From Segatella copri (GTDB lineage Bacteria > Bacteroidota > Bacteroidia > Bacteroidales > Paludibacteraceae): a DNA stretch of 64,000 nucleotides. The stretch spans positions 3,861-67,860 of the forward strand of contig CAVBBP010000003.1 of assembly GCA_963593685.1 (NCBI GenBank). The letters are read 5' to 3'. This document shows positions 1 to 19,879 of this stretch, one piece after another. The notes under the pieces were generated by a model, which saw only the letters and a list, made by a program, of their open reading frames with translations, was not told the DNA's origin and searched no databases. Position 1 is the stretch's first letter. Each line of letters opens with the position of its first letter. Both the position numbers and the translations under genes were made by a program.

Positions 1-1
1 C

Positions 2-868: not shown

Positions 869-1038
869 TTTCAGATTTCAGATTTCAAATTGTAGGGACG
901 CACCGAGTGCGTCCGAAACGCTTCAACAGTTCAACGATTCAACAAATAACTAGAAACATAGAAACAAAAATTGCGGTAGCAATTTTGAGAAACAATTAGA
1001 AACTAGAAACCAGAAACTAGAAACTCAAAAACCAACCA
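869..1038 (+). repeat. mosaic intergenic repeat block (modules e-g-h-i-j-k-l)
   Basis: TTTCAGATTTCAGATTTCAAATT, g hairpin at 896..914, CTTCAACAGTTCAACGATTCAAC, CATAGAAAC, AAAATTGCGGTAGCAATTTT hairpin, TAGAAACTAGAAACCAGAAAC; same order recurs in 2728..3113, 16952..17167, 38798..39148 and reverse-complemented in 12123..12403. Confidence 0.9.
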
Positions 1039-2727: not shown

Positions 2728-3113
2728 GTAGCAAGTAGCAAGAAAAATTAGGAGTGAGGAATTAGGAGTGAGGAATCTTTAGTGAGAAGTGAGCAGTGAG
2801 CAGTGAGCAGTGATGCGGCAAAGCCGCAATTTCAAATTTTATTTGATTTTTGCTCCGCTCGGCATAGTTCAAACGAGTTTGACTCTGCGCTCGCTTGTCG
2901 CACAAATTCAGAATTTCAAATTGTAGGGACGCACCGAGTGCGTCCGAAACAGTTCAACGATTAAACGATTCAACAAATAACCAGAAACATAGAAACTTAG
3001 AAACAAAAATTGCGGCAGCAATTTTGAGAAACAATTAGAAACCAGAAATTAGAAATAACTTTTTCACTTTACACACTTTATAGACTTTCAACTTTATAAA
3101 CTTTCACACTATT
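2728..3113 (+). repeat. mosaic intergenic repeat block, longest colinear copy (a-b-c-d-f-e-g-h-i-j-k-l-m)
   Basis: GTAGCAAGTAGCAAG, TTAGGAGTGAGGAATTAGGAGTGAGGAA, AGTGAGAAGTGAGCAGTGAGCAGTGAGC, GATGCGGCAAAGCCGCAAT hairpin, divergent f core, g hairpin 2927..2945, k hairpin, ACTTT words running up to the ACP start codon. Confidence 0.9.
2836..2912 (+). repeat. f core copy 1 (most divergent)
   Basis: TTTTATTTGATTTTTGCTCCGCTCGGCATAGTTCAAACGAGTTTGACTCTGCGCTCGCTTGTCGCACAAATTC aligns by eye with five other copies. Confidence 0.8.
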
Positions 3114-3371
3114 ATGGAACAACTGATTGAACAACTGAAACAGCAACTTATCGAGGCACTGAATTTGGAAGAGATGACGCCCGCCGACATCGATACCGAT
3201 GCGCCGCTTTTTGGCGCGGGCTTGGGCTTGGATTCGATTGATGCGCTCGAAATCATCTTGATTCTCGAACGCGAATACGGCATCAAACTGCCCGACCCGA
3301 AAGCCGCCAAAGCGCATTTTGCCTCGGTGCGCACACTGGCCGAATTCATCGCTGCCAACCGCACGAAATAG
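3114..3371 (+). CDS. acyl carrier protein (phosphopantetheine-binding)
   Basis: 85 aa, GLGLDSIDALEI with the conserved Ser; lies between two KS genes. Confidence 0.85.
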   Translation: MEQLIEQLKQQLIEALNLEEMTPADIDTDAPLFGAGLGLDSIDALEIILILEREYGIKLPDPKAAKAHFASVRTLAEFIAANRTK

Positions 3372-3380
3372 CAGCGAAAC

Positions 3381-3436
3381 TGACTTGCCGCAGTCAATTT
3401 TTTGAGGTAGAGTAGAGGCTCTGCCTACTGTTTTTT
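3381..3436 (+). terminator. two weak hairpin+T-run candidates after ACP (possible attenuator)
   Basis: TGACT-TGCCGC-AGTCA followed by ATTTTTT (3381..3403); GTAGAGGC-TCT-GCCTAC followed by TGTTTTTT (3412..3436); stems are short. Confidence 0.3.
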
Positions 3437-3477
3437 GGCACAAATCGCCACAAAAACTCTCCAATTCTTTCCAATGT

Positions 3478-3672
3478 TTGAAAGATTGGAAAGTTTGTAG
3501 GTTATAGTTTATAGTTTATAGTTTATAGACAAAAGAATAAAGAGTAAAGACAAAAGACCTAGGCTTTTCCCCCTTCGGGGGAAACGGGAAAGGGGGCTAC
3601 GACCATCACCAATGCGTTAAACCGATCAACCAATCAACTTTTCAACGACCAAATAACCAAATCCAAAAACTT
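3478..3672 (+). repeat. mosaic intergenic repeat block (n-o-p-q-i)
   Basis: GGTTATAGTTTATAGTTTATAGTTTATAGAC, AAAAGAATAAAGAGTAAAGACAAAAGAC, p module, AATGCGTTAAACCGATCAACCAATCAAC, AAATAACCAAATCC up to the GTG start of the next KS. Confidence 0.9.
3562..3600 (+). repeat. p module copy (5C/5G type)
   Basis: GGCTTTTCCCCCTTCGGGGGAAACGGGAAAGGGGGCTAC; TTTCCCCC pairs with GGGGGAAA around a TTC loop. Confidence 0.85.
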
Positions 3673-5625
3673 GTGATAAAAATCTCTGGCATAGGAATTG
3701 TATCGGCGTTGGGCGTGGGCGTGCAGCGCAACTGCGAGGCTTTGCGGGCAGGGCAGAGTGGTTTGGGCAGCGTGTCGCTGTTCAAAACGAACCACCGCGT
3801 GCCTGTGGGCGAAGTGAAACTGTCGAACGATGCACTGAAAAAGCGGCTTGGATTGCCTGAAAATGCCCCCTTTTCGCGTACGGCACTGCTCGGTATGCTG
3901 GCCGCCAAAGAGGCTGTCGATGATGCGCAAATTGCTGTTAATCAGCGCATTGGGTTAGTTTCGGCGACCTCGGTGGGCGGCATGGATCTGACCGAATGTT
4001 TCTACCGTGATTTCATGCACGACCCCAACAAAGGCCGCTTGCGCCTTGCTGCCCACCACGACAGTGCCGACAGCACGCTACAAATAGCCAATTACTGCGG
4101 CATTCACGACTTTTCAACAACCATTTCTACCGCCTGTTCGTCTGCGGCAAACGCCATCATGCTTGGTGCGCGACTGTTGCAGGCGGGGCTGCTCGATGTG
4201 GTGGTGGCTGGTGGCACCGATTCGCTCTGCCAATTCACGCTCAACGGCTTCAAATCGCTGATGATTTTGGACGAAAATCGCTGCCGACCGTTCGACGACA
4301 CGCGCGCTGGGCTCAATCTTGGCGAGGGTGCAGGTTTCATCGTGCTGCAACGCGCCGAAAGCCCATCAGCAAAGAGTTACGGCTATTTGCTCGGTTTTGC
4401 GAATGCCAATGACGCGACTCACCAAACAGCCACTTCGCAGACTGGCGATGGGGCTTTCCTCTCGATGTCGAAGGCGTTGGCGATGGCCAAGTTATCAACA
4501 GCCGACATCGACTATATCAATGTGCATGGCACTGGCACAAGCAACAACGACGCTTCGGAAGGTGCGGCGTTGCAGCGGCTTTTTGGCGCAAATGTGCCGA
4601 CATTCAGTTCGACCAAAGCCTTTACGGGACACACGCTGGCGGCCGCTGGCGGCATCGAGGCGGTGTTTGCGCTGCTATCGCTCCAGCAGGGTGCAGTGTG
4701 GCCGAACCTCAACTTTTCAACGCCGATGCACGAACTGCCGCTTGTGCCGCAAACCGATTTCGCCGAAAATCGCAATCTGCGCCATGTGATGAGCAATTCG
4801 TTTGGCTTTGGCGGTAATTGCGCCACGCTCATCTTTGGCAAAGATGCTACGAAATCGGACGAAAAATGGCACGAAAAACCTGTTTACATCAACATCGCCA
4901 CATCAGACAAAACACTGACAGATGACATAAAAACGTTGATTCCCGACGCTGCCTTGCGCCGCCGCATGAGCCGCATAGTGAAAATGGGCGTGAGCGTGGG
5001 CATGGCGTGCGTTCAGCGTTGCAGTCAGCCAATCGACGCCATCATCACGGCTACGGGCTTCGGCTGCTTGGACGACAGCGAAAAATTTCTGCGCACGCTT
5101 ATCGAAAACGACGAATCGCTGCTCAATCCCACGCCATTCATACAATCGACCTTCAACACGGTGGGCGGACAGATTGGGCTGCTCTGCAAAAATCACTGCT
5201 ACAACATGACTTACACGCACCGTGGGCGCAGTTTCGAGAGCGCGCTGCTCGATGCTATCTTGCTGATACAGAGCGGTGAAGCGCATTGTGTGCTGCTCGG
5301 CGGATTCGACAATAACACGCCGTCGCAACTGAAAATTATGGAGCGCATGGGACTTTGGCGGCACGCCACGGCAGGCGAAGGTGCCTACTTTTTTGTGCTT
5401 TCCGACAAACCGCAGCCCGAGGCGTTGGCGCAGGTGTTTCTGCCCGAATTTTTGTCCGAATTGCCCGCTGGCGCAACGGTCGATTATGCGGCGTGCGGCA
5501 CATTCCACACGGCCTCGGCGGCCGCCTTGTTTGCCGCCTTAACCGACTGCAAATCAGACAGATGGATTTATAACAGTTACTTCGATCAAGCACCGACCGC
5601 CATACACATCGCGCCCTGCAAATGA
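3673..5625 (+). CDS. beta-ketoacyl-ACP synthase fused to a chain-length-factor-like domain
   Basis: TACSSAANAI, NVHGTGTSNND, TGHTLAAAGG in residues 1-400; residues ~410-650 (RRRMSRIVKMGVSVG...) look like the inactive KS/CLF partner of aryl-polyene clusters; GTG start. Confidence 0.85.
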   Translation: MIKISGIGIVSALGVGVQRNCEALRAGQSGLGSVSLFKTNHRVPVGEVKLSNDALKKRLGLPENAPFSRTALLGMLAAKEAVDDAQIAVNQRIGLVSATSVGGMDLTECFYRDFMHDPNKGRLRLAAHHDSADSTLQIANYCGIHDFSTTISTACSSAANAIMLGARLLQAGLLDVVVAGGTDSLCQFTLNGFKSLMILDENRCRPFDDTRAGLNLGEGAGFIVLQRAESPSAKSYGYLLGFANANDATHQTATSQTGDGAFLSMSKALAMAKLSTADIDYINVHGTGTSNNDASEGAALQRLFGANVPTFSSTKAFTGHTLAAAGGIEAVFALLSLQQGAVWPNLNFSTPMHELPLVPQTDFAENRNLRHVMSNSFGFGGNCATLIFGKDATKSDEKWHEKPVYINIATSDKTLTDDIKTLIPDAALRRRMSRIVKMGVSVGMACVQRCSQPIDAIITATGFGCLDDSEKFLRTLIENDESLLNPTPFIQSTFNTVGGQIGLLCKNHCYNMTYTHRGRSFESALLDAILLIQSGEAHCVLLGGFDNNTPSQLKIMERMGLWRHATAGEGAYFFVLSDKPQPEALAQVFLPEFLSELPAGATVDYAACGTFHTASAAALFAALTDCKSDRWIYNSYFDQAPTAIHIAPCK

Positions 5626-6290
5626 CGCTTTTTTTGTCTATCATAGGAATTTTGCTTATCTTTACGCTCCTGTTTTTGGCGTCGTACAGTCTGCGTTTGA
5701 GCGTTTATGTGCGCGCTGTGTGCCGCCTGAAAACGGACAAAAGGGCAGTGGCTCTCACTTTCGACGATGGCTGCGATGCGGTGCAAACGCCGAAAATTTT
5801 GGACATTTTGCGCAAAAATGGCGTTCACGCTACCTTTTTTCTGATTGGCGAAAAGGCGGCGCAATGTCCCGATGTGGTGCGCCGTATGGTGGCCGAGGGG
5901 CATCGTGTGGGCATTCACACCATGCGCCACGAAAGCACATTTCCGCTCAAATCGACGCACAAAGTGATGGCCGACTTGCGTGCCACGCGCGAACTTTTGG
6001 AGCAGATTTGCGGCGAAAAAATCGACCTGTTTCGACCGCCATTTGGCGTTACAAATCCGCATATTGGTCTGGCAGTGAGGCGATTAGGCTTGAAAACCAT
6101 CGGTTGGAGCATACGCTCGTACGACACCAACGCGCGCCGCACACGCTGCGAGGTGGTGCAACACATCGAACGGCGGCTACATAGCGGCGCAATCATCTTG
6201 CTGCACGACGACCGCCCCGAAAGCGACCTGCTGCTCACGAAACTTTTGGAGATGCTGAAACGCCACGAATATGAAATTGTAACAATTTGA
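5622..6290 (+). CDS. polysaccharide deacetylase (NodB domain) with N-terminal TM helix
   Basis: LTFDDG, HTMRHE motifs; ATGA overlap with upstream KS stop. Confidence 0.8.
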   Translation: MTLFLSIIGILLIFTLLFLASYSLRLSVYVRAVCRLKTDKRAVALTFDDGCDAVQTPKILDILRKNGVHATFFLIGEKAAQCPDVVRRMVAEGHRVGIHTMRHESTFPLKSTHKVMADLRATRELLEQICGEKIDLFRPPFGVTNPHIGLAVRRLGLKTIGWSIRSYDTNARRTRCEVVQHIERRLHSGAIILLHDDRPESDLLLTKLLEMLKRHEYEIVTI

Positions 6291-6292
6291 TT

Positions 6293-6919
6293 ATGAAACG
6301 ATTATACATTTCGATACTTTCGGTTTTTGTCAGTTGCAGCGTGCTTTTTGCTGAAACTGAAACCGAAATTTTGACCAAAATCAGCGAAAATGGGGCAGCC
6401 ATTGCCACCATCGAGAGCCGTTTTTCGCAGCGAAAACACGCCAAAGCATTGAAAAACGATGCCCTGTCGAGCGGCCGTTTTTACTACCAAAAGAGCGACA
6501 AAGTCTGCATGGCTTACGACACGCCGCGCGGCGACCTGCTGCTGATGAACGGCGACGATTTTGTGATGGTTGTGGGCGGCAAACGCAGCGCCGCCAATGC
6601 GCAAAGCAACCCGATGCTCAAACAGATGCGCACGCTGCTAACTGCCTGTGTGAGTGGCGATTTCGAGCGACTGAAAACTGGACGAAACACCAAAATTTCG
6701 GTAACGGAAACCGACCGAAACTACATTTTGACCGCCGTTTTCGATGGCTCGGCCAAGAAATACTTTGCCAATGTGGTGCTGACATTCGACAAAAATAGCC
6801 TCGCATTGCTGGTTCTGCGTATGAACGAAGCCAACGGCAATTTCACTGAATATCAGTTCGAAAAGCCAGTGTTCAATCAGCCTATCGACGCTAAAATTTT
6901 TAGCAAAAATAATTTGTAA
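6293..6919 (+). CDS. LolA-like outer-membrane lipoprotein carrier family protein
   Basis: Signal peptide MKRLYISILSVFVSCSVLFA; ~200-aa protein in the position a LolA-like gene occupies in aryl-polyene clusters; I prefer ATG 6293 to track TTG 6287. Confidence 0.6.
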   Translation: MKRLYISILSVFVSCSVLFAETETEILTKISENGAAIATIESRFSQRKHAKALKNDALSSGRFYYQKSDKVCMAYDTPRGDLLLMNGDDFVMVVGGKRSAANAQSNPMLKQMRTLLTACVSGDFERLKTGRNTKISVTETDRNYILTAVFDGSAKKYFANVVLTFDKNSLALLVLRMNEANGNFTEYQFEKPVFNQPIDAKIFSKNNL

Positions 6920-6951
6920 TCGTCTGATTCGTAATTTCTTATAAATAAAAG

Positions 6952-8136
6952 TTGAAGTTTTACTTTAACGACATAAAACAGCGTATCAAGAACCTGAATT
7001 GCGTGGTGCTGATACCGACCTACAACAACGCTGGCACGCTGTTGCAGGTTATTGACGCTGTGCGCCGCTACGCTACCGACATAATGGTGGTGAACGACGG
7101 CAGCACCGACAACACCGCCGCACTTTTGGCCGCCAAACCCGACCTGCACACCATCGGTTATGCACGCAATCGCGGTAAGGGCTATGCGCTGAAAATGGGT
7201 CTGCGCGAGGCAGCACGCTTGGGCTACGCCTACGCCATCACCATCGACAGCGATGGGCAGCACTATGCCGACGACATCGCCGTGTTTGTGGCGGCCGCCG
7301 AGCAGCAACCCGACACGCTTTTTGTGGGTGCGCGCAACCTGCAAGCCGAAAATATGCCGCAACGCAACACCTTTGCCAACCGCTTTTCAAATTTTTGGTA
7401 TTGGGCGGAAACTGGCATCAAACTCACTGATACACAGTCGGGTTTTAGGCTCTATCCGTTGGCGAAATTGGCAAAAATGCGCTTCATCACATCGCGCTAC
7501 GAATTTGAGGTGGAGGTGCTGGTGCGTGCCGCTTGGAAGGGCATAAAGGTCGCAAATGTGCCGATAAAAGTCTATTATCCGCCCGCCGCCGAGCGTGTGT
7601 CGCATTTCCGTCCAGCGCGCGATTTCACGCGAATTTCGCTGCTGAACACCTACTTGGTGCTTGTCGCTCTGCTGATTTATTATCCGTGGCGTTTTCTGCA
7701 CGCGCTCACATGGACGAATGTGAAGCGTTTTGTGCAGCGCAATATCACGCAGTCGCCCGAGAGCAACCTGCGTATGTCGCTGGCCATCGGGTTGGGCATC
7801 TGTTGCGGCATACTGCCTGCGTGGGGTTACCAAATGTGGATTGCGTTGGGCGTGGCGCAGGTGGCGCGGCTCAACAAAGTGCTGGCTGTGGTGGCGAGCA
7901 ACATCAGTGTGCCGCCCATGATTCCGTTCATTCTGTTTGGCAGTTACGCCATCGGTTGTCGCCTGTTGGGCAATCCTATTGCGCTGCTGTTCAGCGAAGT
8001 AACCTTCGACAGCGTGATGGTGAACCTGTGGCAATATCTGCTCGGCGCATGCGTGCTGGCACTACTGGCTGGCCTCGTGGCGTGGTTGATTAGTTGGGCA
8101 TTGTTGGGAATTTTTAGGAAAGGGAAGCGCAGATGA
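6952..8136 (+). CDS. family 2 glycosyltransferase fused to DUF2062-like membrane domain
   Basis: VVLIPTYNNAGTL, DSDGQH (DxD) in the first ~230 aa; multi-TM C-terminus; TTG start (no upstream ATG). Confidence 0.75.
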   Translation: MKFYFNDIKQRIKNLNCVVLIPTYNNAGTLLQVIDAVRRYATDIMVVNDGSTDNTAALLAAKPDLHTIGYARNRGKGYALKMGLREAARLGYAYAITIDSDGQHYADDIAVFVAAAEQQPDTLFVGARNLQAENMPQRNTFANRFSNFWYWAETGIKLTDTQSGFRLYPLAKLAKMRFITSRYEFEVEVLVRAAWKGIKVANVPIKVYYPPAAERVSHFRPARDFTRISLLNTYLVLVALLIYYPWRFLHALTWTNVKRFVQRNITQSPESNLRMSLAIGLGICCGILPAWGYQMWIALGVAQVARLNKVLAVVASNISVPPMIPFILFGSYAIGCRLLGNPIALLFSEVTFDSVMVNLWQYLLGACVLALLAGLVAWLISWALLGIFRKGKRR

Positions 8137-9179
8137 TAGAAAAAACGCACACATTTATAGACCTTTTTTCTGGTTGTGGAGGCATGTCCTTAGGATTTGA
8201 AATGGCTGGTTTTGAAAGTATTTTGGCCATAGATAATTGGGCAGACGCTTTGAATACATATAAGTACAACAGACATGGAGCAAAAACTCTCTGTGTGGAT
8301 TTGGCAAGTATAGAAACGGAAGATGTAGAAAATGCCATAAATGGTAAAAGGGTAGATGTGATTATTGGTGGTCCTCCGTGTCAAGGCTTTTCTGTTGCTG
8401 GAAAAAGAATTGTTGACGACGAACGAAATATACTCTATAAGAGTTTTGTTCGCATGGTTCAATATTTTCAGCCCAAAGCCTTTGTAATGGAAAATGTGCC
8501 AAACATTTTAAGTATTGGTAATGGGATCGTAAAAAAATCTATTTTAAGTGATTTCGAAAAGTTGGGATATACTGTGAAAGTGCAAGTATTGACGGCTTCT
8601 GATTATGGCGTACCACAAAATAGGCGACGCGCCGTGTTTGTTGGTCTACTAAATGGAAAAGAGTTTGAATTTCCTACACCCATTGTAGATGTTGCTAACC
8701 GCGTTACTGCTTACGAAGCGTTGGGCGACTTGCCAGAATACTCGCTGCTAGACGGTGCAGATTATCCTGTAGAAGCGAGTTGTGCCTATCAAACATATGT
8801 AAGAGCCGATAGCAAAGGCGTGTATAATCATGAAATAACAATTCATAATGAGCAAACAAAATCTATAATAGCGATGGTTCCCGATGGCGGCAATTACAAA
8901 GACTTACCTGTAGAATTGCAACAGACGAGAAAGGTGCATATCGCTTGGACAAGACTCAACAGCAAGAAACCGAGTTTTACAATAGATTGTGGACATAGGC
9001 ATCACTTCCATTATGAATGGAACAGGATTCCGACTGTTAGGGAAAGCGCAAGGCTACAGTCTTTCCCAGATGATATTATCTTTTTGGGTACAAAAACAAG
9101 CCAATATAAGCAAGTTGGTAACGCAGTACCTCCTTTAATGGCAAAATCAATAGCAGATCAATTAAATAAAATACTATGA
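8133..9179 (+). CDS. DNA (cytosine-5)-methyltransferase, RM subunit M1
   Basis: Motif I FIDLFSGCGGMSLGF, motif IV GGPPCQGFS, ENV, QNRRR, GNAVPP; AT-rich codons; ATGA overlap with the GT2 stop. Confidence 0.95.
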   Translation: MIEKTHTFIDLFSGCGGMSLGFEMAGFESILAIDNWADALNTYKYNRHGAKTLCVDLASIETEDVENAINGKRVDVIIGGPPCQGFSVAGKRIVDDERNILYKSFVRMVQYFQPKAFVMENVPNILSIGNGIVKKSILSDFEKLGYTVKVQVLTASDYGVPQNRRRAVFVGLLNGKEFEFPTPIVDVANRVTAYEALGDLPEYSLLDGADYPVEASCAYQTYVRADSKGVYNHEITIHNEQTKSIIAMVPDGGNYKDLPVELQQTRKVHIAWTRLNSKKPSFTIDCGHRHHFHYEWNRIPTVRESARLQSFPDDIIFLGTKTSQYKQVGNAVPPLMAKSIADQLNKIL

Positions 9180-10663
9180 AAAAACAAGGAATAAAGTATT
9201 ATCAAGTTTCCAATAAGAATTGGTATAGGATACACTTTGTAAGACCACGATTCAAAAGTAATATAGAGAATGTCTTACTTTACATGGCCAACGAATGTTG
9301 CCGTATTCCTAAGTGTTCGTGTGCAGAATACAGCAAAAGGTATTTTAATGCTATTAAAATGTTTCCAGGTAATGTTGGTATGAAAAAGAAAACTCTCGAT
9401 AATTGGAGAACGGAAATACCTGCGCTGTTTGGATTTTATAAGGAGAATAAAGATCGTAACATCACGGAAACATCTCCAATGGCTGTGTTTTTACACGAGA
9501 ATCAAGATTTAACACAATTTTTAAGGATATTTTTATATTCCTTTCAGTTTCCTGGTGGACATATGAAATCCAACGATGTAAAGGATATCATATCTCATGG
9601 CATTAAATTCAAGCCAGCAAAGATAATTATACAAGTATTAATGGCAGGTAACGAAATTCTAAACAACGAGAATAGCTCAAAAGATATGTCTTTATCCGCA
9701 GAAGAAGCCACTTACTGTATATTCAATGATGTGCGCGTAACAAGTGGAAAACGCTCGCCTTCCGAAATCGCAAAAATTATATTGGAAAATCGGAAAAATT
9801 CTGTTAAATATTACAATTCCAAAGATGTAAAAATATGTTCATTGAGAGGAAATGCAAGAACAAAAGGCGACGTAACAAGATATGCTGGAGATATTCTTGA
9901 TTACATGGAAATAGCCAATTTATTGATTAAGAGAAATGGTTATTTTTCGTTGAAAGAGAACGAATTGTCAGCCCTAACGACCTTTGCAAATGATACAACA
10001 TGGTTTTGTGGATATGATAATTTTTATGGCAAAGAGAATGTGGAAACAACGGATATAGCAAAAATTGAACCAGAATGGTTTGAATATGTTAACAAATCTT
10101 TAAAGCCAGATCTTTTTAGGACGGATATTCGTTCAATTATGGCGGAAAATGACGAAATAGATGTTATTTTTACAGATAGAATAAAAGATCTCGTGGCATC
10201 TGATGATAGAACTACTAGAGATATCGGAAATCTTGGTGAAGCTATTATTTGTAGCCATGAAAAAATGAGGCTAAAAAAAAGTGGCTACGAGAAATTCATT
10301 CATGCTATTCAAATAGTCGATAGTCCTTCTTACCATCCTGGATATGATATTGATAGTTACGAGGCCGACGGAACGGAATGCCATAGATATATTGAAGTAA
10401 AAACTACTATTAGTAAGCAAAAAATACAAATGTATGGTTTCCATATGTCGCCAAATGAATGGCGAGTAGCGGCAACAATCAAAGAACATTATTGTGTATA
10501 TCGTTTAATGTTGAATGAACACAGCAAAACGCTTATTATTTTAAGAAATCCAGTGAATTTGTATAAAACAGACAAAATAGAGGCAGAACCGCATGATGGA
10601 ATGGAAATTTCGTTTTCTACAGAAACATTTGTACCAACAGAATTATTGATATGGAAAGAATAA
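9176..10663 (+). CDS. candidate type II restriction endonuclease (PD-(D/E)xK, DUF3883-like C-terminus)
   Basis: Sandwiched between and overlapping two m5C methyltransferase genes; C-terminal GNLGEAIICSHE...GYDIDSYEADG...RYIEVKTT...MSPNEWRVAA...YCVYRL fits a D..(E)xK nuclease core; I recognise nothing in the N-terminal ~340 aa. Confidence 0.55.
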   Translation: MKKQGIKYYQVSNKNWYRIHFVRPRFKSNIENVLLYMANECCRIPKCSCAEYSKRYFNAIKMFPGNVGMKKKTLDNWRTEIPALFGFYKENKDRNITETSPMAVFLHENQDLTQFLRIFLYSFQFPGGHMKSNDVKDIISHGIKFKPAKIIIQVLMAGNEILNNENSSKDMSLSAEEATYCIFNDVRVTSGKRSPSEIAKIILENRKNSVKYYNSKDVKICSLRGNARTKGDVTRYAGDILDYMEIANLLIKRNGYFSLKENELSALTTFANDTTWFCGYDNFYGKENVETTDIAKIEPEWFEYVNKSLKPDLFRTDIRSIMAENDEIDVIFTDRIKDLVASDDRTTRDIGNLGEAIICSHEKMRLKKSGYEKFIHAIQIVDSPSYHPGYDIDSYEADGTECHRYIEVKTTISKQKIQMYGFHMSPNEWRVAATIKEHYCVYRLMLNEHSKTLIILRNPVNLYKTDKIEAEPHDGMEISFSTETFVPTELLIWKE

Positions 10664-11640
10664 AAGTAGCCTCATTGTTTTGTGGTTGTGGTGGTATGGA
10701 TTTGGGAATACTTGGAGGATTCTCATATCTTGAAAAAAAGTATGAAAAAAATGCTTTTGATGTTGTGTATGCTGTAGACAATGACGAATATTGTACAAAA
10801 ATATATAACGAAAATTTCGAGCATAAGTGTATTGTCGAAGATGTACGACGAATAGAAATCGATAAGATCCCTAGTTTTGATATGCTTATAGGCGGTTTCC
10901 CTTGTCAGTCATTTTCCATTTCTGCTCAAAATCCTCCTCGTTTAGGTTGCAAAGATGAGAGGGGTATGTTATTTTTTGAAATGGTAAAAATTCTTAAAAT
11001 GCGTCAACCTCGCTTTTTTATTGCAGAAAATGTAAAGGGCATACTTTCTGCGAATAAGGGAGGAGCATTTCCAATGATTATAAGTGAATTTAGAAATGCA
11101 GGTTATAAGGTAACTTATAAATTACTAAATGCCTATGAATATGGTGTGCCACAAAAGAGAGAGCGCATAATAATCGTTGGTTTTCGTAACGAAAAAGATT
11201 ACACAAAATTTAGATTTCCACAGAAAGTAGATACATATAATCGTAAAGTATTGGGCGATGTTATATTGGAAGAAGCAAATAATGATGAACAACTTTTTTT
11301 TAGTAATAAGGCTGTTGAAGGCATGATGGCCGTACGACAAAAAATGAACAAAGGAAGGACTATGAAACTTGAACAACCATGTAATACAATAAGTGCACAC
11401 CTTGCAAAAGTTAGCCTTAATAGTACAGATCCTGTTTTAATGGTTGGCGACCGATATAGACGATTTTCACCAAGAGAAGCAGCAAGTATACAGTCGTTTC
11501 CAAATACTTTCAAATTAGATGCCGTTTCTCAAATACGCCAATATAAGGCTATCGGTAATGCAGTTCCGCCTGTAATGATGTGGCATATAGCAAAAGCATT
11601 GCAAGATGTTATGGAAAATTCTAACTCGACAACGCCATGA
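10651..11640 (+). CDS. DNA (cytosine-5)-methyltransferase, RM subunit M2
   Basis: VASLFCGCGGMDLG, GGFPCQSFS, ENVKG, QKRERIII, GNAVPP; 13-nt overlap with the nuclease ORF. Confidence 0.95.
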   Translation: MERIKVASLFCGCGGMDLGILGGFSYLEKKYEKNAFDVVYAVDNDEYCTKIYNENFEHKCIVEDVRRIEIDKIPSFDMLIGGFPCQSFSISAQNPPRLGCKDERGMLFFEMVKILKMRQPRFFIAENVKGILSANKGGAFPMIISEFRNAGYKVTYKLLNAYEYGVPQKRERIIIVGFRNEKDYTKFRFPQKVDTYNRKVLGDVILEEANNDEQLFFSNKAVEGMMAVRQKMNKGRTMKLEQPCNTISAHLAKVSLNSTDPVLMVGDRYRRFSPREAASIQSFPNTFKLDAVSQIRQYKAIGNAVPPVMMWHIAKALQDVMENSNSTTP

Positions 11641-12137
11641 CCTACGAAACCAAATACGCGTCGCCGTTGGGCGTGCTGGTGCTGCAGAGCGATGGTCGCT
11701 ATTTGACGCGCCTCTTTTTTGCTGATTCGCACGCTGCCGTGAAGGGCGGGGTGCAGGTCGAAGAGAAACGCCTCCCGATTTTTGAGCAAACAGTCCGCTG
11801 GCTCGACATCTATTTTGGTGGCGCAGTGCCCGATTTCACGCCCGAATACCGCATCGAAGGGAGCACGCCTTTTCGGCAGCAGGTGTTGCAGTTGGTGTGC
11901 CAAATTCCATACGGCCAAACGGCGACCTACGGCGATTTGGCGCAGCAGATAGCCGCCGCAAACGGCCTCGAAAAGATGTCGGCGCAGGCGGTGGGTGGCG
12001 CAGTTGGCTGGAATCCCATCTGTCTTGTAGTGCCGTGCCACCGCGTGGTCGGCGCACACGGCAACCTGACGGGCTACCGCGGCGGCCTCGCACGCAAAAA
12101 GCAGTTGCTGGACTTGGAAAGAGTAGAAAGTGTGTAA
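11637..12137 (+). CDS. ogt: methylated-DNA-protein-cysteine methyltransferase
   Basis: IPYGQTATYGDLA and active-site VPCHRVVG; GC returns to host level exactly at its ATG (ATGA overlap with M2 stop). Confidence 0.9.
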   Translation: MTYETKYASPLGVLVLQSDGRYLTRLFFADSHAAVKGGVQVEEKRLPIFEQTVRWLDIYFGGAVPDFTPEYRIEGSTPFRQQVLQLVCQIPYGQTATYGDLAQQIAAANGLEKMSAQAVGGAVGWNPICLVVPCHRVVGAHGNLTGYRGGLARKKQLLDLERVESV

Positions 12138-12403
12138 AGTTTATAAAGTAAAAAGTGTGTAAAGTGTGTAAAGTTATTTCTAATTTCTAGTTTCTAATTT
12201 CTAATTGTTTCTCAAAATTGCGGCAGCAATTTTTGTTTCTAGGTTTCTGGTTATTTGTTGAATCGTTTAATCGTTGAACTGTTGAAGCGTTTCGGACGCA
12301 CTCGGTGCGTCCCTACAATTTGAAATCTGAAATTTGAAATTCTGTCATTGCGGCTCTGCCGCATCACTCCTCACTCCTAATTCCTAACTCCTCACTCAAA
12401 AAC
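12123..12403 (-). repeat. mosaic repeat block, reverse complement of the 2728..3113 order (m-l-k-j-i-h-g-e-d-b)
   Basis: GTAGAAAGTGTGTAAAGTTTATAAAGT starts inside the last ogt codons; g hairpin 12294..12312 as GGACGCACTCGGTGCGTCC; ends CACTCCTCACTCCTAATTCCTAACTCCTCACTC just before ATG 12404. Confidence 0.9.
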
Positions 12404-15400
12404 ATGACTCGTTTTTTTCTGAAAATATACGATTTTTTTGAACGGCGGCGCGCGTTGATGTGGCTGCTGATGCTCGTTTCGGTGGTGGTGATGGCGCTGC
12501 TGGCGGCGCAACTGCGGTTGCACACCGACATCACCAGTTTTGTGCCTGAAAGTGCAGAGCAGGGCGGCAGCAAGGAGATTTTGGCGAATTTGAAGATAAA
12601 AGACCGCATTATCGTGCTGTTTTCGGCTGAAAATGAGGTGATTACGCCCGACGATTTGATTGCCGTAGCCGACGCTTTCGAGGACGAACTTTGGCAGCGC
12701 ACCGATTCGGCGCACATTCTCAATCTCGACGCGCACATCGATGTGTCGGTGGTTGATAACACCATCAATTTTATCTATCGCAATCTGCCTGTTTTTCTCG
12801 ATTCGGCCGACTACGCCGCGCTCGACAGCCTTTTGCAGCCGCAGGTTTGCGACGAACGCATGGCCGAAAATTACCGCGATTTGCTCTCGCCGATGAGCGT
12901 AGGTGTGCAGGATATTGTGCTACGCGATCCGTTCGGACTGGGCAGTCGCACGCTCGCTAAATTGCAGAATTTCAATCAGTTCGACGGATTCGCCATCTAC
13001 GACGACCGCCTTTTTTCTGACGATTTCAAAACGCTTTTTCTCTTTATCGATTCGCAGGACGGCAGCAACGCATCGCCGCTGAACGACGCACTGACCACTG
13101 CCATCGAGGAGAGTTTGGCGCAAGTGAACTCCGAAAATATCGCGGCTGAGTGCTACGGCGTGCCGATAATCGCCACCTATAATGCGCGGCAAATTCAGCG
13201 CGATTTGATGGTTACCGTCAATGTGGCGCTGTTGGTCATTATTGTGCTTATCTTGCTGGCTTTCAGGCGGAAACGAACCATTTTCTTGCTGATTTTGCCT
13301 GTGGTTTATGGCACACTGTTCGCTGCGGCGTGCATCTATCTGGCGCAAGGGCAGATTTCTGCCATCGCCATCGGCACAGGAGCGGTGGTTTTGGGCGTGG
13401 CGTTGAGTTATTCGGTGCATGTCATTTCGCACGCCGAGCATAGCAGCAACGCACGGCAGGTTATTGCCGAACTGACCTATCCGCTCACCATCGGCAGCAT
13501 CACCACCATCGGCGCATTTGTAGGTTTGCAGTTCACCAGTTCGCCGCTGTTGCAAGATTTTGGGCTGTTTGCCGCCTTGTGTTTGGTGGGAACAACGCTT
13601 TTTTGTCTCATTTTTCTGCCACATTTCTTGACGGCGGGCGGCGGCCAAACCAAACGGCGCGCCATGCGCATTATCGACAAGATAAACTCCTATCCCTACG
13701 ACCGAAATCGTTGGCTGATAGGCGGTTTGGCGGTGGTTACCATTGTTGCGCTCTTCACCTGCAACGATGTGCGTTTCAACTACGACATGATGCAACTCAG
13801 TTACCGACCGCCGCACCTCGAAAACGCTGGGAAACGCCTCCACAACCGCCCCGACGAGGATATGTCGATTTTGCTTGTGTCGCACAGCGGAAACGCCGAA
13901 AAAGCCGTTGCCGACTATGCCGCTACCAACGCCATTTTGCATGCGGCGTGCGATTCGCAGACGGTGCAGAAATATATGTCGGCCGCCGATTTTTTGCCGA
14001 CCATCAGCGTGCAAACCGAGCGCATTGCACATTGGAACGCCTATTTTTCGGCCGAAAAACGGGCGAAAATTGCCGCACAACTGCACCAATCGGCTCAAAA
14101 AGTGGGCTTTGCAAGCGACGCTTTCGACCAATTTTCCGAAATTATCGGGCAGAACTATGCGCCGCACAACCTTTTGGCCGAATCTGCGGGGCAGCCGTTG
14201 GCATTTTCGAGTTTGGTAGAGCAGAGCGACACAACCACGCTGCTGCTCACGCAAGTTTGGCTGGCCGACGCACACAAGCCCGACCTTTACGCGCAAGTTG
14301 CCAAAACTTCGGCCATCATCGACCAAAGTTATTTCATCGGGCAGGTGGCGCGCTCCATCAACGACGATTTCAACCTGATACTCGCCATCTCGTCGCTGCT
14401 GATATTTGGCGTGCTACTGATTTCGTACGGCCATTTGGTGCTGGCGTTGCTCGCTTTTCTGCCGATGTTTGTCAGTTGGTTCATCATTCTCGGCTTTATG
14501 GCCATTTTCGGCATCGAATTCAACATCGTCAATATCATTCTTTCGACATTCATTTTCGGCATTGGCGACGATTTCAGCATCTTTGTACTCGATGGTTTGC
14601 GCAGCGAATACCGCGAAGGGAAACCGCTACTGCCAGCGCACAAAAACGCCATTTTCTTCTCGTCGCTGATGACCGTTATCGGCATGGGCGCACTGCTTTT
14701 TGCGCACCACCCAGCGGTGCATTCGTTGGCGTTGGTGTCGCTGTTGGGCATTTTGGTGGTGGTGTTTGTGTCGTACATTTTGCAGCCGCTGCTGTTCCGC
14801 TGGTTGGTTACTTGGCCTGCCTCGAAAGGCGGTTGGCCTGTGGCTGTGAGCGACCTGCTGCGCACCGCTTATGTTTTCACTATCTTTCTGATTCTCTGTG
14901 TTTTAACGCAAATAGCCATCGTCGTTTTGCTGATTGTTCCATCGACCATGCGCTGGAAACGCCGCACGATGTGTCGCATTGTACGGCTGGTGCTTTACTG
15001 CACACACCACTGCGTTCCCGATGTGCGCAATAGCGTGGAGTGCGGCGGCGAAACATTCGAAAAACCAGCCATCATCATCGCCAATCACCAGTCGATTATC
15101 GACCTCACAGCCATCATCGGTATGGTGCCGAAATTGGTCGTTATCACCAAAAAATATGTCTGGCACTCGCCATTTTTCGGCTGGTCGGTGCGTATGGCGG
15201 GCTACATGCATTCCGAGCAGGGCGTCGAACAGATCGACCGCACAGTGGCGCAACGCATTGCCGAAGGCTATTCGGTGCTGATTTTCCCCGAAGGCACGCG
15301 CTCGCCCGACCTGAAAGTGCATCGCTTTCATCAAGGCGCGTTTCTGCTGGCCGAACGACACAAACTCGATATTCTGCCAATCGCTGTTTATGGCAATGGC

Positions 15401-15982
15401 ATGATTTTGTCGAAACGGCAGCCGTTGCTCGTGAAACCGGGGCATTCGGTGCTGAAAGTGCTGCCGCGCGTGGCTTATGACGACCCCACTTTTGGCACGA
15501 CTTACCAAGAGCGCAGCAAAAATTTCAGAATCTATCTGCAACAACAGTACGACCTGCTTTGCGACCGATACAATACGCCCGAAAACGCCTATTTCAGGGC
15601 AGAGTGGCGGCATCGACTGCTCTACAAAGAGACGCAAACCGAGTTGCAACTCTGCCTCAAAGCGCAGCGCGAACACTATTTTACCGCTCTCGATAGGCAG
15701 ATTCCGCGCACTGCCACGGTGGCGCAACTGGCGTGCGGTTACGCGCCCGAAGCGTTGATGTTGGCACTGCTCGCCGACGGACGCACCATTGTCGGTATCG
15801 ACAGCGATGCCACGAAAATCGCCGTTTGCAGCCACTACAACCTGCCCAACGCCACATTCGTCTGTGCCGACCCGCTCACCTGCGCATTACCGCAAGCCGA
15901 TTTCTATCTGGTGCAAAAAAACAATGCTGCGCTCGCCGTTCGCTGCCAACACGCTGGTTTTAAGGTGATTTTGTGCACCTAA
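12404..15982 (+). CDS. MMPL/RND-like transporter fused to lysophospholipid acyltransferase (PlsC) and a methyltransferase-like tail
   Basis: Residues ~1-800 have two multi-TM bundles separated by soluble loops; acyltransferase motifs ANHQSIIDL (HX4D) and FPEGTRS; C-terminal IVGIDSD / FVCADP class I MTase-like strands with a degenerate motif I (LACGYAPEA). Confidence 0.8.
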   Translation: MTRFFLKIYDFFERRRALMWLLMLVSVVVMALLAAQLRLHTDITSFVPESAEQGGSKEILANLKIKDRIIVLFSAENEVITPDDLIAVADAFEDELWQRTDSAHILNLDAHIDVSVVDNTINFIYRNLPVFLDSADYAALDSLLQPQVCDERMAENYRDLLSPMSVGVQDIVLRDPFGLGSRTLAKLQNFNQFDGFAIYDDRLFSDDFKTLFLFIDSQDGSNASPLNDALTTAIEESLAQVNSENIAAECYGVPIIATYNARQIQRDLMVTVNVALLVIIVLILLAFRRKRTIFLLILPVVYGTLFAAACIYLAQGQISAIAIGTGAVVLGVALSYSVHVISHAEHSSNARQVIAELTYPLTIGSITTIGAFVGLQFTSSPLLQDFGLFAALCLVGTTLFCLIFLPHFLTAGGGQTKRRAMRIIDKINSYPYDRNRWLIGGLAVVTIVALFTCNDVRFNYDMMQLSYRPPHLENAGKRLHNRPDEDMSILLVSHSGNAEKAVADYAATNAILHAACDSQTVQKYMSAADFLPTISVQTERIAHWNAYFSAEKRAKIAAQLHQSAQKVGFASDAFDQFSEIIGQNYAPHNLLAESAGQPLAFSSLVEQSDTTTLLLTQVWLADAHKPDLYAQVAKTSAIIDQSYFIGQVARSINDDFNLILAISSLLIFGVLLISYGHLVLALLAFLPMFVSWFIILGFMAIFGIEFNIVNIILSTFIFGIGDDFSIFVLDGLRSEYREGKPLLPAHKNAIFFSSLMTVIGMGALLFAHHPAVHSLALVSLLGILVVVFVSYILQPLLFRWLVTWPASKGGWPVAVSDLLRTAYVFTIFLILCVLTQIAIVVLLIVPSTMRWKRRTMCRIVRLVLYCTHHCVPDVRNSVECGGETFEKPAIIIANHQSIIDLTAIIGMVPKLVVITKKYVWHSPFFGWSVRMAGYMHSEQGVEQIDRTVAQRIAEGYSVLIFPEGTRSPDLKVHRFHQGAFLLAERHKLDILPIAVYGNGMILSKRQPLLVKPGHSVLKVLPRVAYDDPTFGTTYQERSKNFRIYLQQQYDLLCDRYNTPENAYFRAEWRHRLLYKETQTELQLCLKAQREHYFTALDRQIPRTATVAQLACGYAPEALMLALLADGRTIVGIDSDATKIAVCSHYNLPNATFVCADPLTCALPQADFYLVQKNNAALAVRCQHAGFKVILCT

Positions 15983-16951: not shown

Positions 16952-17167
16952 TGAGATTTCAAAATTTCAAATTCCAAATTTCAGAATTTCAAATTGTAGG
17001 GACGCACCGCGTGCGTCCGAACGCTTCAACAGTTCAACGATTAAACAAAACATAGAAACAGCGCGAAGCGCGAGAGACTTAGAAACAAAAATTGCGGCAG
17101 CAATTTTGAGAAACAATTAGAAACTATAAATCAGAAATCAGAAATAACCAAATCCACAACAAAAAAA
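16952..17167 (+). repeat. mosaic repeat block (e-g-h-j-k-l-i)
   Basis: g hairpin variant GGACGCACCGCGTGCGTCC at 17000..17018; AGCGCGAAGCGCGAG; AAAATTGCGGCAGCAATTTT; ends AAATCCACAACAAAAAAA before the nagB ATG. Confidence 0.9.
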
Positions 17168-17977: not shown

Positions 17978-18175
17978 AATTAGAATTATTTGAAGATTTG
18001 AAAATTTGAAAATTGTGGCTTTCTTGATTCCTACAACCTGAAACTTGAAATCTAAAATAACCCTCACAAACCAACACCAATACATTAAACTTTTCAACTT
18101 ATCAACTCATCAACTTTTCAACGACCAATCAACTAATCAACTAATCAACCAATCAACTGATCAACTCAAATAGAA
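17978..18175 (+). repeat. mosaic repeat block (r/t-u-q)
   Basis: TTTGAAGATTTGAAAATTTGAAAATTG, CCTGAAACTTGAAATC, then CAACTTATCAACTCATCAAC...CAATCAACTAATCAACTAATCAACCAATCAACTGATCAAC up to the alr ATG. Confidence 0.85.
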
Positions 18176-19714: not shown

Positions 19715-19879
19715 TTTATAATTGTATAATTGCTTAATTTCCAATTACTTAATTATTTGAAAATTTGAAAATTTGAAGATTTGAAAATTGGGTTTGCCGC
19801 CCCGACCTTTATTGATGCGTTAAACTTATCAACTGATCAACTTATCAACTCATTTGAAACCGTGCGTAGCACGAAAAAC
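19715..19879 (+). repeat. mosaic repeat block (s-t-q)
   Basis: TAATTTCCAATTACTTAATTA, TTTGAAAATTTGAAAATTTGAAGATTTGAAAATTG, CCTTTATTGATGCGTTAAACTTATCAACTGATCAACTTATCAAC. Confidence 0.85.

What the first reader, a model, noticed from the sequence alone, without database searches (positions are those of the whole stretch)
8125..11645. The RM cassette is spliced in seamlessly: ATGA start/stop overlaps at both junctions form a 4-bp direct repeat
The left junction is ...GGGAAGCGCAG-ATGA-TAGAAAAAACG, where TGA stops the host GT2-DUF2062 gene and ATG starts M1. The right junction is ...CGACAACGCC-ATGA-CCTACGAAACC, where TGA stops M2 and ATG starts host ogt. The GC shift coincides with these tetranucleotides to within a few bases. 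Removing 8137..11640 would leave ...GCGCAG-ATGA-CCTACG..., a host GT2 stop overlapping the ogt start. The cassette therefore looks like an insertion into a pre-existing ATGA gene junction. It has no promoter, repeat block or spacer of its own, so it would be transcribed and translationally coupled as part of the host operon. This is an unusually clean way for a selfish RM unit to embed itself. It also differs from every native junction nearby, which carry mosaic repeat blocks.
Basis: partly seen in the sequence, partly recalled or inferred. Interest (0 to 1): 0.6.

Follow-up and report, generated by a model that had tools for sequence, protein, structure and literature searches.

The report
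Restriction cassette spliced into operon junction
A foreign three-gene restriction-modification system sits exactly in the overlapping stop/start junction between two genes of a gut Bacteroidales lipid operon. Sister strains still carry the empty junction, so this is a well-documented but fairly ordinary case of a defence system embedded, without a promoter of its own, in a host operon.

Summary
ATGA stop/start overlaps lie at 8133-8136 (GT2/M1) and 11637-11640 (M2/ogt), bounding a 35.5% GC M1-R-M2 cassette in roughly 54-59% GC host DNA.

The cassette is a BpuJI-type Type IIS restriction-modification system: two m5C methylases flank a BpuJI_N + PD-(D/E)XK nuclease.

Same-species and sister-species assemblies without the cassette read GT2-ATGA-ogt.

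The splice is not perfectly seamless:
- On the left, four host bases (ACGA) are replaced by G. GT2 is 394 aa in every filled allele examined and 395 aa in every empty one examined.
- The right edge reads CAACGccATGA against host CAACGaATGA, which suggests microhomology.
- The left ATGA belongs to M1 and the right one to the host, so this is not a target-site duplication.

Free-standing relatives usually have an upstream leader, often with a TAnnTTTG promoter box, and usually a longer M2; one has an HTH gene. All are missing here, so expression by operon read-through is likely but untested.

New findings:
- ogt is itself an earlier insertion at the ancestral GT2-ATGA-MMPL junction.
- The site has three cassette alleles with the same junction sequences wherever these are assembled. 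One has R and most of M2 swapped.
- ATGA overlaps are common locally, including a native one at 5622.

Verdict: real, neat, and a new member of a known kind.

The parts
6952..8136 (+). Host GT2-DUF2062 glycosyltransferase gene. Its stop codon TGA (8134-8136) overlaps the M1 start. The filled allele is 394 aa (tail GKRR*); empty alleles are 395 aa (tail GKRNE* and variants).
   Evidence: Pfam Glycos_transf_2 1.5e-19 and DUF2062 3.4e-16. All four 394-aa alleles listed are filled. The 395-aa alleles whose context was read are empty: P0023 in L173/L174, plus L001, L002 and L184.
8131..8133 (+). Left breakpoint. Host homology ends at A8131. G8132 replaces host ACGA. The M1 ATG starts at 8133.
   Evidence: Junction alignment of the window with empty alleles L173, L174, L001 and L002.
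8133..9179 (+). M1, an m5C DNA methyltransferase of 348 aa (PCQ82, ENV120, QNRRR162, GNA329).
   Evidence: Pfam DNA_methylase 4.1e-75; TIGR00675 dcm 2.6e-66; motifs.
9176..10663 (+). R, a BpuJI-like Type IIS restriction endonuclease of 495 aa. It has an N-terminal BpuJI_N recognition domain and a C-terminal NOV_C / PD-(D/E)XK nuclease (D...EVK around residue 407). Its start overlaps the M1 stop by ATGA.
   Evidence: Pfam BpuJI_N 2e-121 and NOV_C 8.8e-14. PDB 5hlt/2vla (R.BpuJI N-terminal domain) 7e-17. Motif.
10651..11640 (+). M2, an m5C DNA methyltransferase of 329 aa (PCQ84, ENV126, QKRER168, GNA302). It overlaps R by 13 nt. This is a short form lacking the ~150-aa C-terminal extension found in most Bacteroidales homologues. 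Its stop TGA is the host junction's TGA.
   Evidence: Pfam DNA_methylase 9.2e-76; TIGR00675 2.1e-87. C-terminal alignment with homologues.
11616..11636 (+). Right breakpoint zone. Family homology of M2 ends at about 11615. Bases 11616-11629 cannot be assigned. Bases 11630-11634 (CAACG) match the host. Bases 11635-11636 are CC where the host has A.
   Evidence: BLAST aligns empty alleles to the window from 11630 onward, with differences only at 11635-11636. M2 tail alignment.
11637..12137 (+). ogt (methylated-DNA-protein-cysteine methyltransferase, 166 aa, PCHR site intact). Its ATG overlaps the M2 stop. It is itself a lineage-specific insert, present at this site only in G000, G002 and G005.
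   Evidence: Pfam DNA_binding_1 6.9e-31 and Methyltransf_1N 3.9e-08. Genus survey. More distant relatives have GT2 directly followed by MMPL.
9174..11453 (+). Segment replaced in allele type C (L183, L185). There, R is only 24% aa identical and M2 is 53%, while M1 and the last ~180 nt of M2 stay 89-93% nt identical.
   Evidence: blastn and blastp of L183 and L185 against the window and L188.
12138..12403 (+). ogt-MMPL spacer made of 7-9-nt tandem-repeat blocks, lying 3' of ogt, the earlier insert. MMPL starts ATGAC at 12404.
   Evidence: Tandem Repeats Finder rows 12122-12397; sequence.

Best explanation
A BpuJI-type Type IIS restriction-modification unit was inserted once into the translationally coupled GT2-ATGA-ogt junction of an aryl-polyene-like lipid operon in a Paludibacteraceae species. 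The unit is M1(m5C)-R-M2(m5C), 3505 nt and 35.5% GC. Insertion was by recombinase-independent (illegitimate, microhomology-assisted) recombination.

The event replaced host ACGA with G plus the cassette. On the left it removed whatever 5' leader or regulator the donor carried; free-standing relatives often have a TAnnTTTG promoter box there, and one has an HTH gene. On the right it ended just after the M2 catalytic core, so M2 now terminates on the host junction's TGA. As a result GT2/M1, M1/R and M2/ogt are all ATGA overlaps.

Inferred, not shown: the unit is transcribed by read-through from the host operon, is translationally coupled, and in turn carries transcription on to ogt.

Shown: the insertion persists as a presence/absence polymorphism. 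It is under purifying selection and moves among strains by homologous recombination in the flanks. It has diversified in place, including a swap of R and most of M2 for those of another BpuJI-family system.
For: - Identity of the system: Pfam, NCBIfam and PDB hits. The gene order M1-R-M2 matches the published BpuJI system (PMC1874659) and about 70 homologous loci.
- Foreign origin: GC 0.355 against 0.55-0.59 in the flanks. R is absent from the other 14 species of the genus.
- Empty sites: L173, L174, L184, L001 and L002 read ...GCGCAACGA-ATGA-CCTACG....
- Single event: the same left junction (CAG-ATGA-TAG) occurs in alleles A, B and C. The same right junction (CGACAACGCC-ATGA) occurs in A and C.
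- No mobility signature: no terminal inverted or direct repeats, and the cassette's three ORFs are all RM genes, so there is no integrase or transposase inside it. There is no plasmid or phage carrier.
- Microhomology: BLAST extends host homology to 8131 on the left and from 11630 (CAACG..ATGA) on the right.
- Lost parts: homologues mostly have an AT-rich leader, often with a TAnnTTTG box. One has an HTH_3 gene. Most have a long M2.
- Promoter and terminator scans: no + strand TAnnTTTG in 1-10871. No terminator-like site in 6800-12500, against 6.2 expected.
- Function maintained: dN/dS between lineages A and B is 0.06-0.12. Catalytic motifs are intact.
- Spread by homologous recombination: A-type cassettes differ at 0-2 of 3505 nt, while GT2 differs at 28-61 of 1181 nt.
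Against: - No donor closer than 77% (R) exists among 5.8 billion protein clusters. The donor's ends, and therefore the exact breakpoints, cannot be fixed.
- The right edge needs either a chance CAACG match or an extra A-to-CC change.
- ORF-precise ends on both sides are improbable for one random illegitimate event, unless strong selection or later trimming acted.
- Read-through transcription and coupling are inferred from motif absence only. Bacteroidota promoters can be degenerate, and internal promoters are common in RM operons.
- Most comparison sequences are MAG or metagenome contigs, which can blend strains.
- The right junction of lineage B was not recovered.
Confidence: 0.78

Rival explanations
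1. Two-step origin. A larger unit (leader, possibly an HTH controller, long M2, some donor flank) first inserted near the GT2/ogt junction. Deletions then trimmed it to ORF-precise ATGA overlaps, under selection to restore coupling of ogt and to express M1.
For: Most free-standing relatives carry a 5' leader, and one carries an HTH gene; most also have a ~150-aa M2 extension. Both-sided 4-nt overlap is unique among about 50 family loci examined. The right edge looks like host CAACG plus a frame-adjusting A-to-CC change.
Against: No intermediate allele was found. All filled alleles (A, B, C) share the same junctions. Short-M2 relatives with similar tails exist (L122, L114, L117), so truncation need not have occurred here.
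Confidence: 0.15
2. The cassette is transcriptionally autonomous. A promoter inside the 3' end of GT2, or inside M1 or R, drives the RM genes, and the operon context is incidental.
For: AT-rich foreign DNA often contains fortuitous promoters. The sigma-70-type scan finds 24 promoter-like sites in 6800-12500 against 13.0 +/- 3.9 in shuffles. One + strand TAnnTTTG lies at 10872-10879. Many RM systems have internal promoters (general knowledge; review PMC3874152, listed).
Against: There is no canonical Bacteroidota -7 box (TAnnTTTG) on the + strand upstream of M1, R or M2. The sigma-70 consensus is not the Bacteroidota promoter type. All four junctions are overlaps with no room for regulatory DNA.
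Confidence: 0.2
3. ATGA is a target-site duplication made by a site-specific or transposon-like mobile RM unit.
For: A 4-bp identical sequence lies at both ends. Furuta et al. 2010 describe some RM units with short target duplications (PMC2853133).
Against: A true duplication would leave host ...CGCAACGA-ATGA on the left, but the observed sequence is CGCAG-ATGA. The left ATGA is M1 coding sequence, and many homologues also start ATGA. There are no terminal inverted repeats, and none of the cassette's three ORFs is a recombinase. Other family members sit in unrelated contexts without ATGA bounds.
Confidence: 0.03
4. The cassette is ancestral and the empty alleles are deletions, or the junction is an assembly chimera.
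For: Lineages A and B differ at synonymous sites (pS 0.12-0.23) as much as the host GT2 does (0.11), so the insertion is old.
Against: There is a 20-point GC deficit. The cassette is absent from 14 of 15 species of the genus. The two sister species have the same empty architecture and the 395-aa GT2 tail. One or both junctions were recovered independently in a dozen or more assemblies and runs.
Confidence: 0.02

Closest known systems
BpuJI restriction-modification system of Bacillus pumilus (Type IIS, CCCGT; Sukackaite et al. 2007, PMC1874659; PDB 2VLA, 5HLT)
   Same: A single R gene flanked by two separate m5C methyltransferase genes. R has an N-terminal BpuJI_N recognition domain (Pfam 2e-121) and a C-terminal nuclease related to archaeal Holliday-junction resolvases, a PD-(D/E)XK fold (NOV_C; D...EVK).
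   Different: Similarity to BpuJI itself is weak (E 7e-17 over the N-terminal domain), so specificity is probably different and is unknown. The system is chromosomal, lacks its own promoter and sits in a Bacteroidales biosynthetic operon. M2 is a short form.
RM gene complexes inserted into operon-like gene clusters (Kobayashi group: Furuta, Abe & Kobayashi 2010, PMC2853133; review PMC2993543)
   Same: A Type II RM unit is found between co-directional genes of an operon-like cluster, with an empty site in related genomes. The insertion point is at a translation start/stop site, leaving both neighbours intact.
   Different: There is no long target duplication and no flanking repeats. Both ends are 4-nt stop/start overlaps, the cassette's own leader is missing, and M2 uses the host junction's stop codon. 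Here the same junction had already accepted another gene (ogt).
Allelic substitution and variable RM loci (for example the Type III versus Type I+IV substitution in Furuta 2010)
   Same: One chromosomal site holds alternative RM contents: empty, A, B or C. Exchange occurs through conserved flanks, and here also through the conserved M1 and the conserved motif X region of M2.
   Different: The swap is internal to the cassette (R plus about 290 aa of M2). The original junctions and M1 are kept.
Integron gene cassettes (functional analogy only)
   Same: Promoterless foreign ORFs are stacked one after another at one site and expressed from an upstream resident promoter. The newest insert lies closest to the promoter (RM before ogt).
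   Different: There is no attC or attI. No integrase lies within or directly next to the cassette, and a wider search was not made. Junctions are start/stop overlaps with no room for recombination sites.
Microhomology-assisted or homology-facilitated illegitimate recombination of foreign DNA (general knowledge, not tested here)
   Same: A small deletion of target bases (ACGA), short GC-rich matches at the joints (CA; CAACG..ATGA), and no recombinase footprint.
   Different: The uptake route and any homologous anchor are unknown, and the donor sequence was not sampled.

Membership tests
BpuJI-like Type IIS RM system | Endonuclease with a BpuJI N-terminal DNA-recognition domain | tested here: met
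   Pfam PF11564 BpuJI_N 2e-121, residues 9-302, full profile length. PDB R.BpuJI N-terminal domain 6.8e-17.
BpuJI-like Type IIS RM system | C-terminal PD-(D/E)XK (archaeal Holliday-junction-resolvase-like) catalytic domain with acidic residues and lysine | tested here: met
   Pfam NOV_C 8.8e-14, residues 354-450. The motif D...EVK is present at ...GYDIDSYEADGTECHRYIEVKTT.
BpuJI-like Type IIS RM system | Two separate m5C methyltransferase genes flanking R, one per strand of an asymmetric site | tested here: met
   M1 and M2 both hit PF00145 (about 1e-75) and TIGR00675. PCQ, ENV, QxRxR and GNA motifs are present. The order M1-R-M2 matches PMC1874659.
BpuJI-like Type IIS RM system | Recognition of an asymmetric sequence (CCCGT for BpuJI), cleavage nearby and strand-specific methylation | not testable with these tools
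   This needs a methylome or enzyme assay. Low identity to BpuJI makes a transfer of specificity unsafe.
RM insertion into an operon-like cluster (Kobayashi class) | Empty site in closely related genomes with the two neighbours adjacent and co-directional | tested here: met
   L173, L174, L184, L001 and L002 read GT2-ATGA-ogt.
RM 'insertion with long target duplication' | Long (~100 bp) direct repeats of target sequence flanking the RM unit | tested here: not met
   No flanking direct repeat beyond ATGA or CA.
Transposon-like RM unit | Terminal inverted repeats, a short exact target duplication, and a transposase or integrase in or near the unit | tested here: not met
   No terminal inverted repeats. 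Host ACGA is lost rather than duplicated. The only ORFs inside are M1, R and M2.
Integron gene cassette | An attC recombination site at the 3' end of each cassette | tested here: not met
   The M2 stop overlaps the ogt start, so no non-coding 3' sequence exists. No imperfect palindrome at the end.
Operon-embedded, read-through-expressed cassette | A joint transcript with upstream host genes, and no promoter of its own | tested here: inconclusive
   Motif scans only. No + strand TAnnTTTG in 1-10871 and no terminators. RNA data could not be reached.

The most novel reading that the evidence does not exclude
The translationally coupled stop/start overlap after GT2 may act as a recurrent, recombinase-free docking site. 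Promoterless foreign ORFs would be captured one after another: ogt first, then the RM unit, and a thioredoxin-like ORF in a sister species. Each newcomer would take over the ATGA coupling to GT2. This would be an integron-like way of stacking genes, driven by ATGA-centred microhomology plus selection for expression, and possibly general to tight operon junctions.
Probability: 0.1. Interest if true: 0.7.

Novelty: new member of a known kind. Interest (0 to 1): 0.35.

Why it matters
This is an unusually well-resolved natural example of how a defence system becomes part of a host operon. Base-level empty and filled alleles are available in the same species. The case shows loss of the cassette's own control region, capture of a host stop codon, nested insertion at a junction that had already accepted another gene, and in-place swapping of the specificity-determining genes.

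It makes some questions testable. Does an RM unit placed under a lipid-biosynthesis operon's control stay safely balanced (methylase made before nuclease)? Do tight ATGA junctions act as preferred entry points for promoterless genes?

It does not reveal a new kind of system. RM units inserted into operon-like clusters and variable RM loci are already described.

Tried and rejected
No RNA-seq or read-level test of co-transcription or within-sample polymorphism was possible, and read laying was not attempted without valid run ids.
- Donor search: the nearest R outside this locus is 77% identical among 5.8 billion protein clusters. The best match among species-representative genomes is 76%. There is no plasmid or phage carrier. 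Donor ends therefore could not be defined.
- Target-site-duplication reading of ATGA: rejected, because host ACGA is lost and the left ATGA is M1 coding sequence.
- Terminal repeats or mobile-element signature: none. The repeats found are only M1/M2 paralogous motifs.
- CAACG at 11630-11634: I considered whether it is host-derived or cassette-native. It stays unresolved. Short-M2 relatives (L122) have vaguely similar tails.
- Specificity: I did not infer CCCGT, because identity to BpuJI is too low.
- Right junction of lineage B: not recovered, because contig L181 ends inside M2.
- Searches failed on wrong coordinates for a side ORF in L005. This was solved by entering the peptide directly.
- The M2 C-terminal extension of homologues has no Pfam match.


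Full report
**1. Observation**

The + strand carries five ORFs: GT2-DUF2062 at 6952-8136, M1 at 8133-9179, R at 9176-10663, M2 at 10651-11640 and ogt at 11637-12137.

The cassette (8132-11636, 3505 nt) is 35.5% GC. GT2 is 55.3%, ogt 59.1% and the MMPL gene 53.5%. The shift happens within one 300-nt window of each junction.

There are no terminal direct or inverted repeats. The only repeats found are paralogous M1/M2 methylase motifs. There is no terminator-like hairpin in 6800-12500, against 6.2 expected in shuffles.

ATGA overlaps are not foreign to this neighbourhood:
- The native ketosynthase/deacetylase junction at 5622-5625 is ATGA, and so is M1/R at 9176-9179.
- A crude ORF-based count on the whole genome gives ATGA overlaps at 58 of 1034 co-directional neighbour pairs, about 5.6%.
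- Repeat-block spacers are real (for example 12122-12397), but they sit at looser junctions.

**2. What the cassette is**

M1 and M2 are m5C DNA methyltransferases. Both hit PF00145 at about 1e-75 and TIGR00675, and both keep the PCQ, ENV, QxRxR and GNA motifs.

R has a full-length BpuJI_N domain (2e-121) and a NOV_C / PD-(D/E)XK domain with D...EVK. It also matches the solved N-terminal domain of R.BpuJI at 7e-17.

The published BpuJI system has the same layout: one R gene flanked by two m5C methylase genes, typical of Type IIS systems with asymmetric sites (PMC1874659).

The M1-R-M2 order is conserved in about 70 species representatives, mostly gut Bacteroidales with a more distant clade in Clostridia.

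**3. Empty sites**

The host belongs to a Paludibacteraceae genus, judged by the record titles of its relatives. The window is G000:C3.

Several assemblies lack the cassette and read GT2 directly overlapping ogt: ...GGGAAGCGCAACGA-ATGA-CCTACGAAACC...
- L173 and L174, two MAGs whose junction-proximal flanks are identical to the window's.
- L184, a further metagenome contig.
- L001 (G002, GT2 97% aa) and L002 (G005, 94% aa), the two sister species.

GT2 length tracks the state in the 90%-identity GT2 cluster. All four 394-aa alleles listed (tail GKRR or GKGR) are filled. The 395-aa alleles whose context was read (tail ..NE) are empty: P0023 in L173/L174, plus L001, L002 and L184.

**4. The splice is not perfectly seamless**

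Empty allele: GCGCA-ACGA-ATGACC.
Filled, left side: GCGCA-G-ATGATAG.
Filled, right side...CTCGA-CAACG-CC-ATGACC.

BLAST aligns the empty alleles to the window up to 8131 and again from 11630. The only differences there are at 11635-11636. Three things follow:
- Four host bases were replaced by G on the left. GT2 lost one codon but still stops on a TGA that now belongs to M1's ATG-ATA.
- The right edge carries CAACGccATGA where the host has CAACGaATGA. This could be an imperfect 9-of-10 microhomology or a later adjustment.
- The left ATGA is cassette coding sequence; many M1 homologues also begin ATGA. The right ATGA is the host's old junction. The '4-bp direct repeat' is therefore not a target-site duplication.

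**5. What the cassette lost**

- In homologous loci M1 is usually preceded by an AT-rich leader. Many of these contain the Bacteroidota -7 box TAnnTTTG, for example L116, L127, L128, L132, L134, L137, L139, L141, L144 and L145.
- One free-standing relative (L188) has an HTH_3 controller-like gene upstream.
- Here nothing from the cassette precedes the M1 ATG except one to three bases.
- The window has no + strand TAnnTTTG anywhere between 1 and 10871.
- Most Bacteroidales homologues have an M2 about 150 aa longer. Here M2 stops about seven to nine residues after the catalytic core, on the host's TGA.
- In a crude context survey, 10 of 48 family loci have a co-directional ORF ending within 50 nt upstream, and 22 of 53 have one starting within 50 nt downstream. 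Only this locus has -4/-4 at both ends.

Tight embedding therefore recurs in the family, but the both-sided overlap is exceptional.

**6. History of the site**

Across Bacteroidales, GT2 is normally followed directly by the MMPL-acyltransferase gene, very often with an ATGA overlap (L007, L008, L012, L023, L029, L040).

Only G000, G002 and G005 carry ogt between the two genes. The other species of the genus have a different ogt (37-49% identity) elsewhere. In a fourth species (L005) a Thioredoxin_3 ORF plus repeat blocks sit at the same junction.

The site has therefore accepted at least three different inserts. In this lineage two are nested: ogt first, then the RM unit, each taking over the ATGA coupling to GT2.

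**7. Population genetics of the cassette**

Three cassette types were found at this site, with the same junction sequences wherever a junction was assembled.
- Type A occurs in the window, L178, L179 and L180, plus the partial contig L172. It differs at 0-2 of 3505 nt among copies, while GT2 differs at 28-61 of 1181 nt and ogt at 8-16 sites. This fits spread of one cassette copy through diverged strains by homologous recombination close to its edges.
- Type B (L175-L177, L181) is 95-97% identical to A. dN/dS is 0.06-0.12 and pS is 0.12-0.23, comparable to the host GT2 value of 0.11. The insertion is therefore old and the genes are under purifying selection.
- Type C (L183, L185-L187) keeps M1 (93.6% aa) and the last ~35 residues of M2. 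Its R is 24% identical and most of its M2 is 53% identical. Those parts are 85-86% identical to a free-standing cassette, L188. The right crossover lies in the conserved GNAVPPVMMW motif.

The locus is thus a small variable RM site with fixed junctions.

**8. Mechanism**

Shown:
- Foreign origin and a single insertion at a pre-existing coupled junction.
- Loss of four host bases.
- Absence of recombinase genes or terminal repeats.
- Purifying selection.
- Cassette identity much higher than flank identity, and the internal swap.

Inferred:
- Joining by microhomology-assisted illegitimate recombination.
- Transcription by read-through from the operon promoter, translation coupling at the ATGA overlaps, and onward supply of transcript to ogt.
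- Whether the ORF-precise ends arose in one step or by later trimming is open. I give about 0.15 to the two-step rival.

**9. Comparison with what is known**

Kobayashi and co-workers already reported Type II RM units inserted into operon-like structures. They also noted that RM insertion repeats often span start or stop sites, leaving neighbours intact (PMC2853133; PMC2993543). Allelic substitution at RM loci is also known.

This case lacks the long target duplication and inverted repeats of their mobile classes. It adds base-level resolution, promoter loss, stop-codon capture, nested insertion and an internal swap.

I file it as a new member of a known kind, of moderate interest (0.35).

The boldest reading still open is that tight ATGA junctions act as general recombinase-free docking sites for promoterless genes. 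I give that about 0.1.

Noticed in passing
window 868-1025, 2727-3110, 3492-3638, 12122-12397, 16956-16995, 18088-18166, 19717-19850; also L001 7680-7966, L002 7675-7718, L005 7030-7260: Many intergenic spacers are mosaics of short tandem repeats with 7-9-nt periods (ATTTCTA, GTTGAATC, AATTTGA, TCACTCC, AAAGTGTGT and others). The same style of spacer occurs in sister species. It looks like a genus-wide feature of unknown function.
   Followed up: partly
L101-L113, L118-L120, L124, L125, L128-L132, L134 (M2 genes, about 7440-7900 in locus coordinates): Most Bacteroidales homologues of M2 carry a conserved C-terminal extension of about 150 aa (...NVLISLVKADNIEQYLD...IWRTFTDTT...). It has no Pfam match and is absent from the window's M2.
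   Followed up: partly
window 11637-12137; G000-G014: The ogt at this site is the only ogt found in G000. It is only 37-49% identical to the ogt genes of the other species of the genus, which lie elsewhere. This looks like displacement of the usual ogt by a foreign copy in the G000/G002/G005 clade.
   Followed up: partly
L005 7267-7503: In a sister species, a 78-aa Thioredoxin_3 ORF flanked by repeat blocks occupies the same GT2/MMPL junction. This is a third independent insert at the site.
   Followed up: partly
L188 627-836: A free-standing relative of the type C cassette has a 69-aa HTH_3 (controller-protein-like) gene about 160 nt upstream of M1. The operon-embedded alleles have none.
   Followed up: partly
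L001, L002, L005, L006 (record titles): Contigs that clearly belong to this Paludibacteraceae genus (GT2 82-97% identical, same operon) are deposited under unrelated names: Acutalibacteraceae, Erysipelotrichaceae, Leyella stercorea and Flexilinea. Labels in that MAG series appear unreliable.
   Followed up: no
L180 about 2500-3850 (window equivalent about 6271-6515): In one filled MAG allele the alignment to the window breaks between the deacetylase and LolA genes, and the gene calls there differ. This could be a local rearrangement or an assembly problem.
   Followed up: no
window 12404-15982: The MMPL-acyltransferase gene starts ATGAC, as does ogt (ATGACC). ATGA(C) therefore recurs at three successive gene starts: 8133, 11637 and 12404.
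   Followed up: partly
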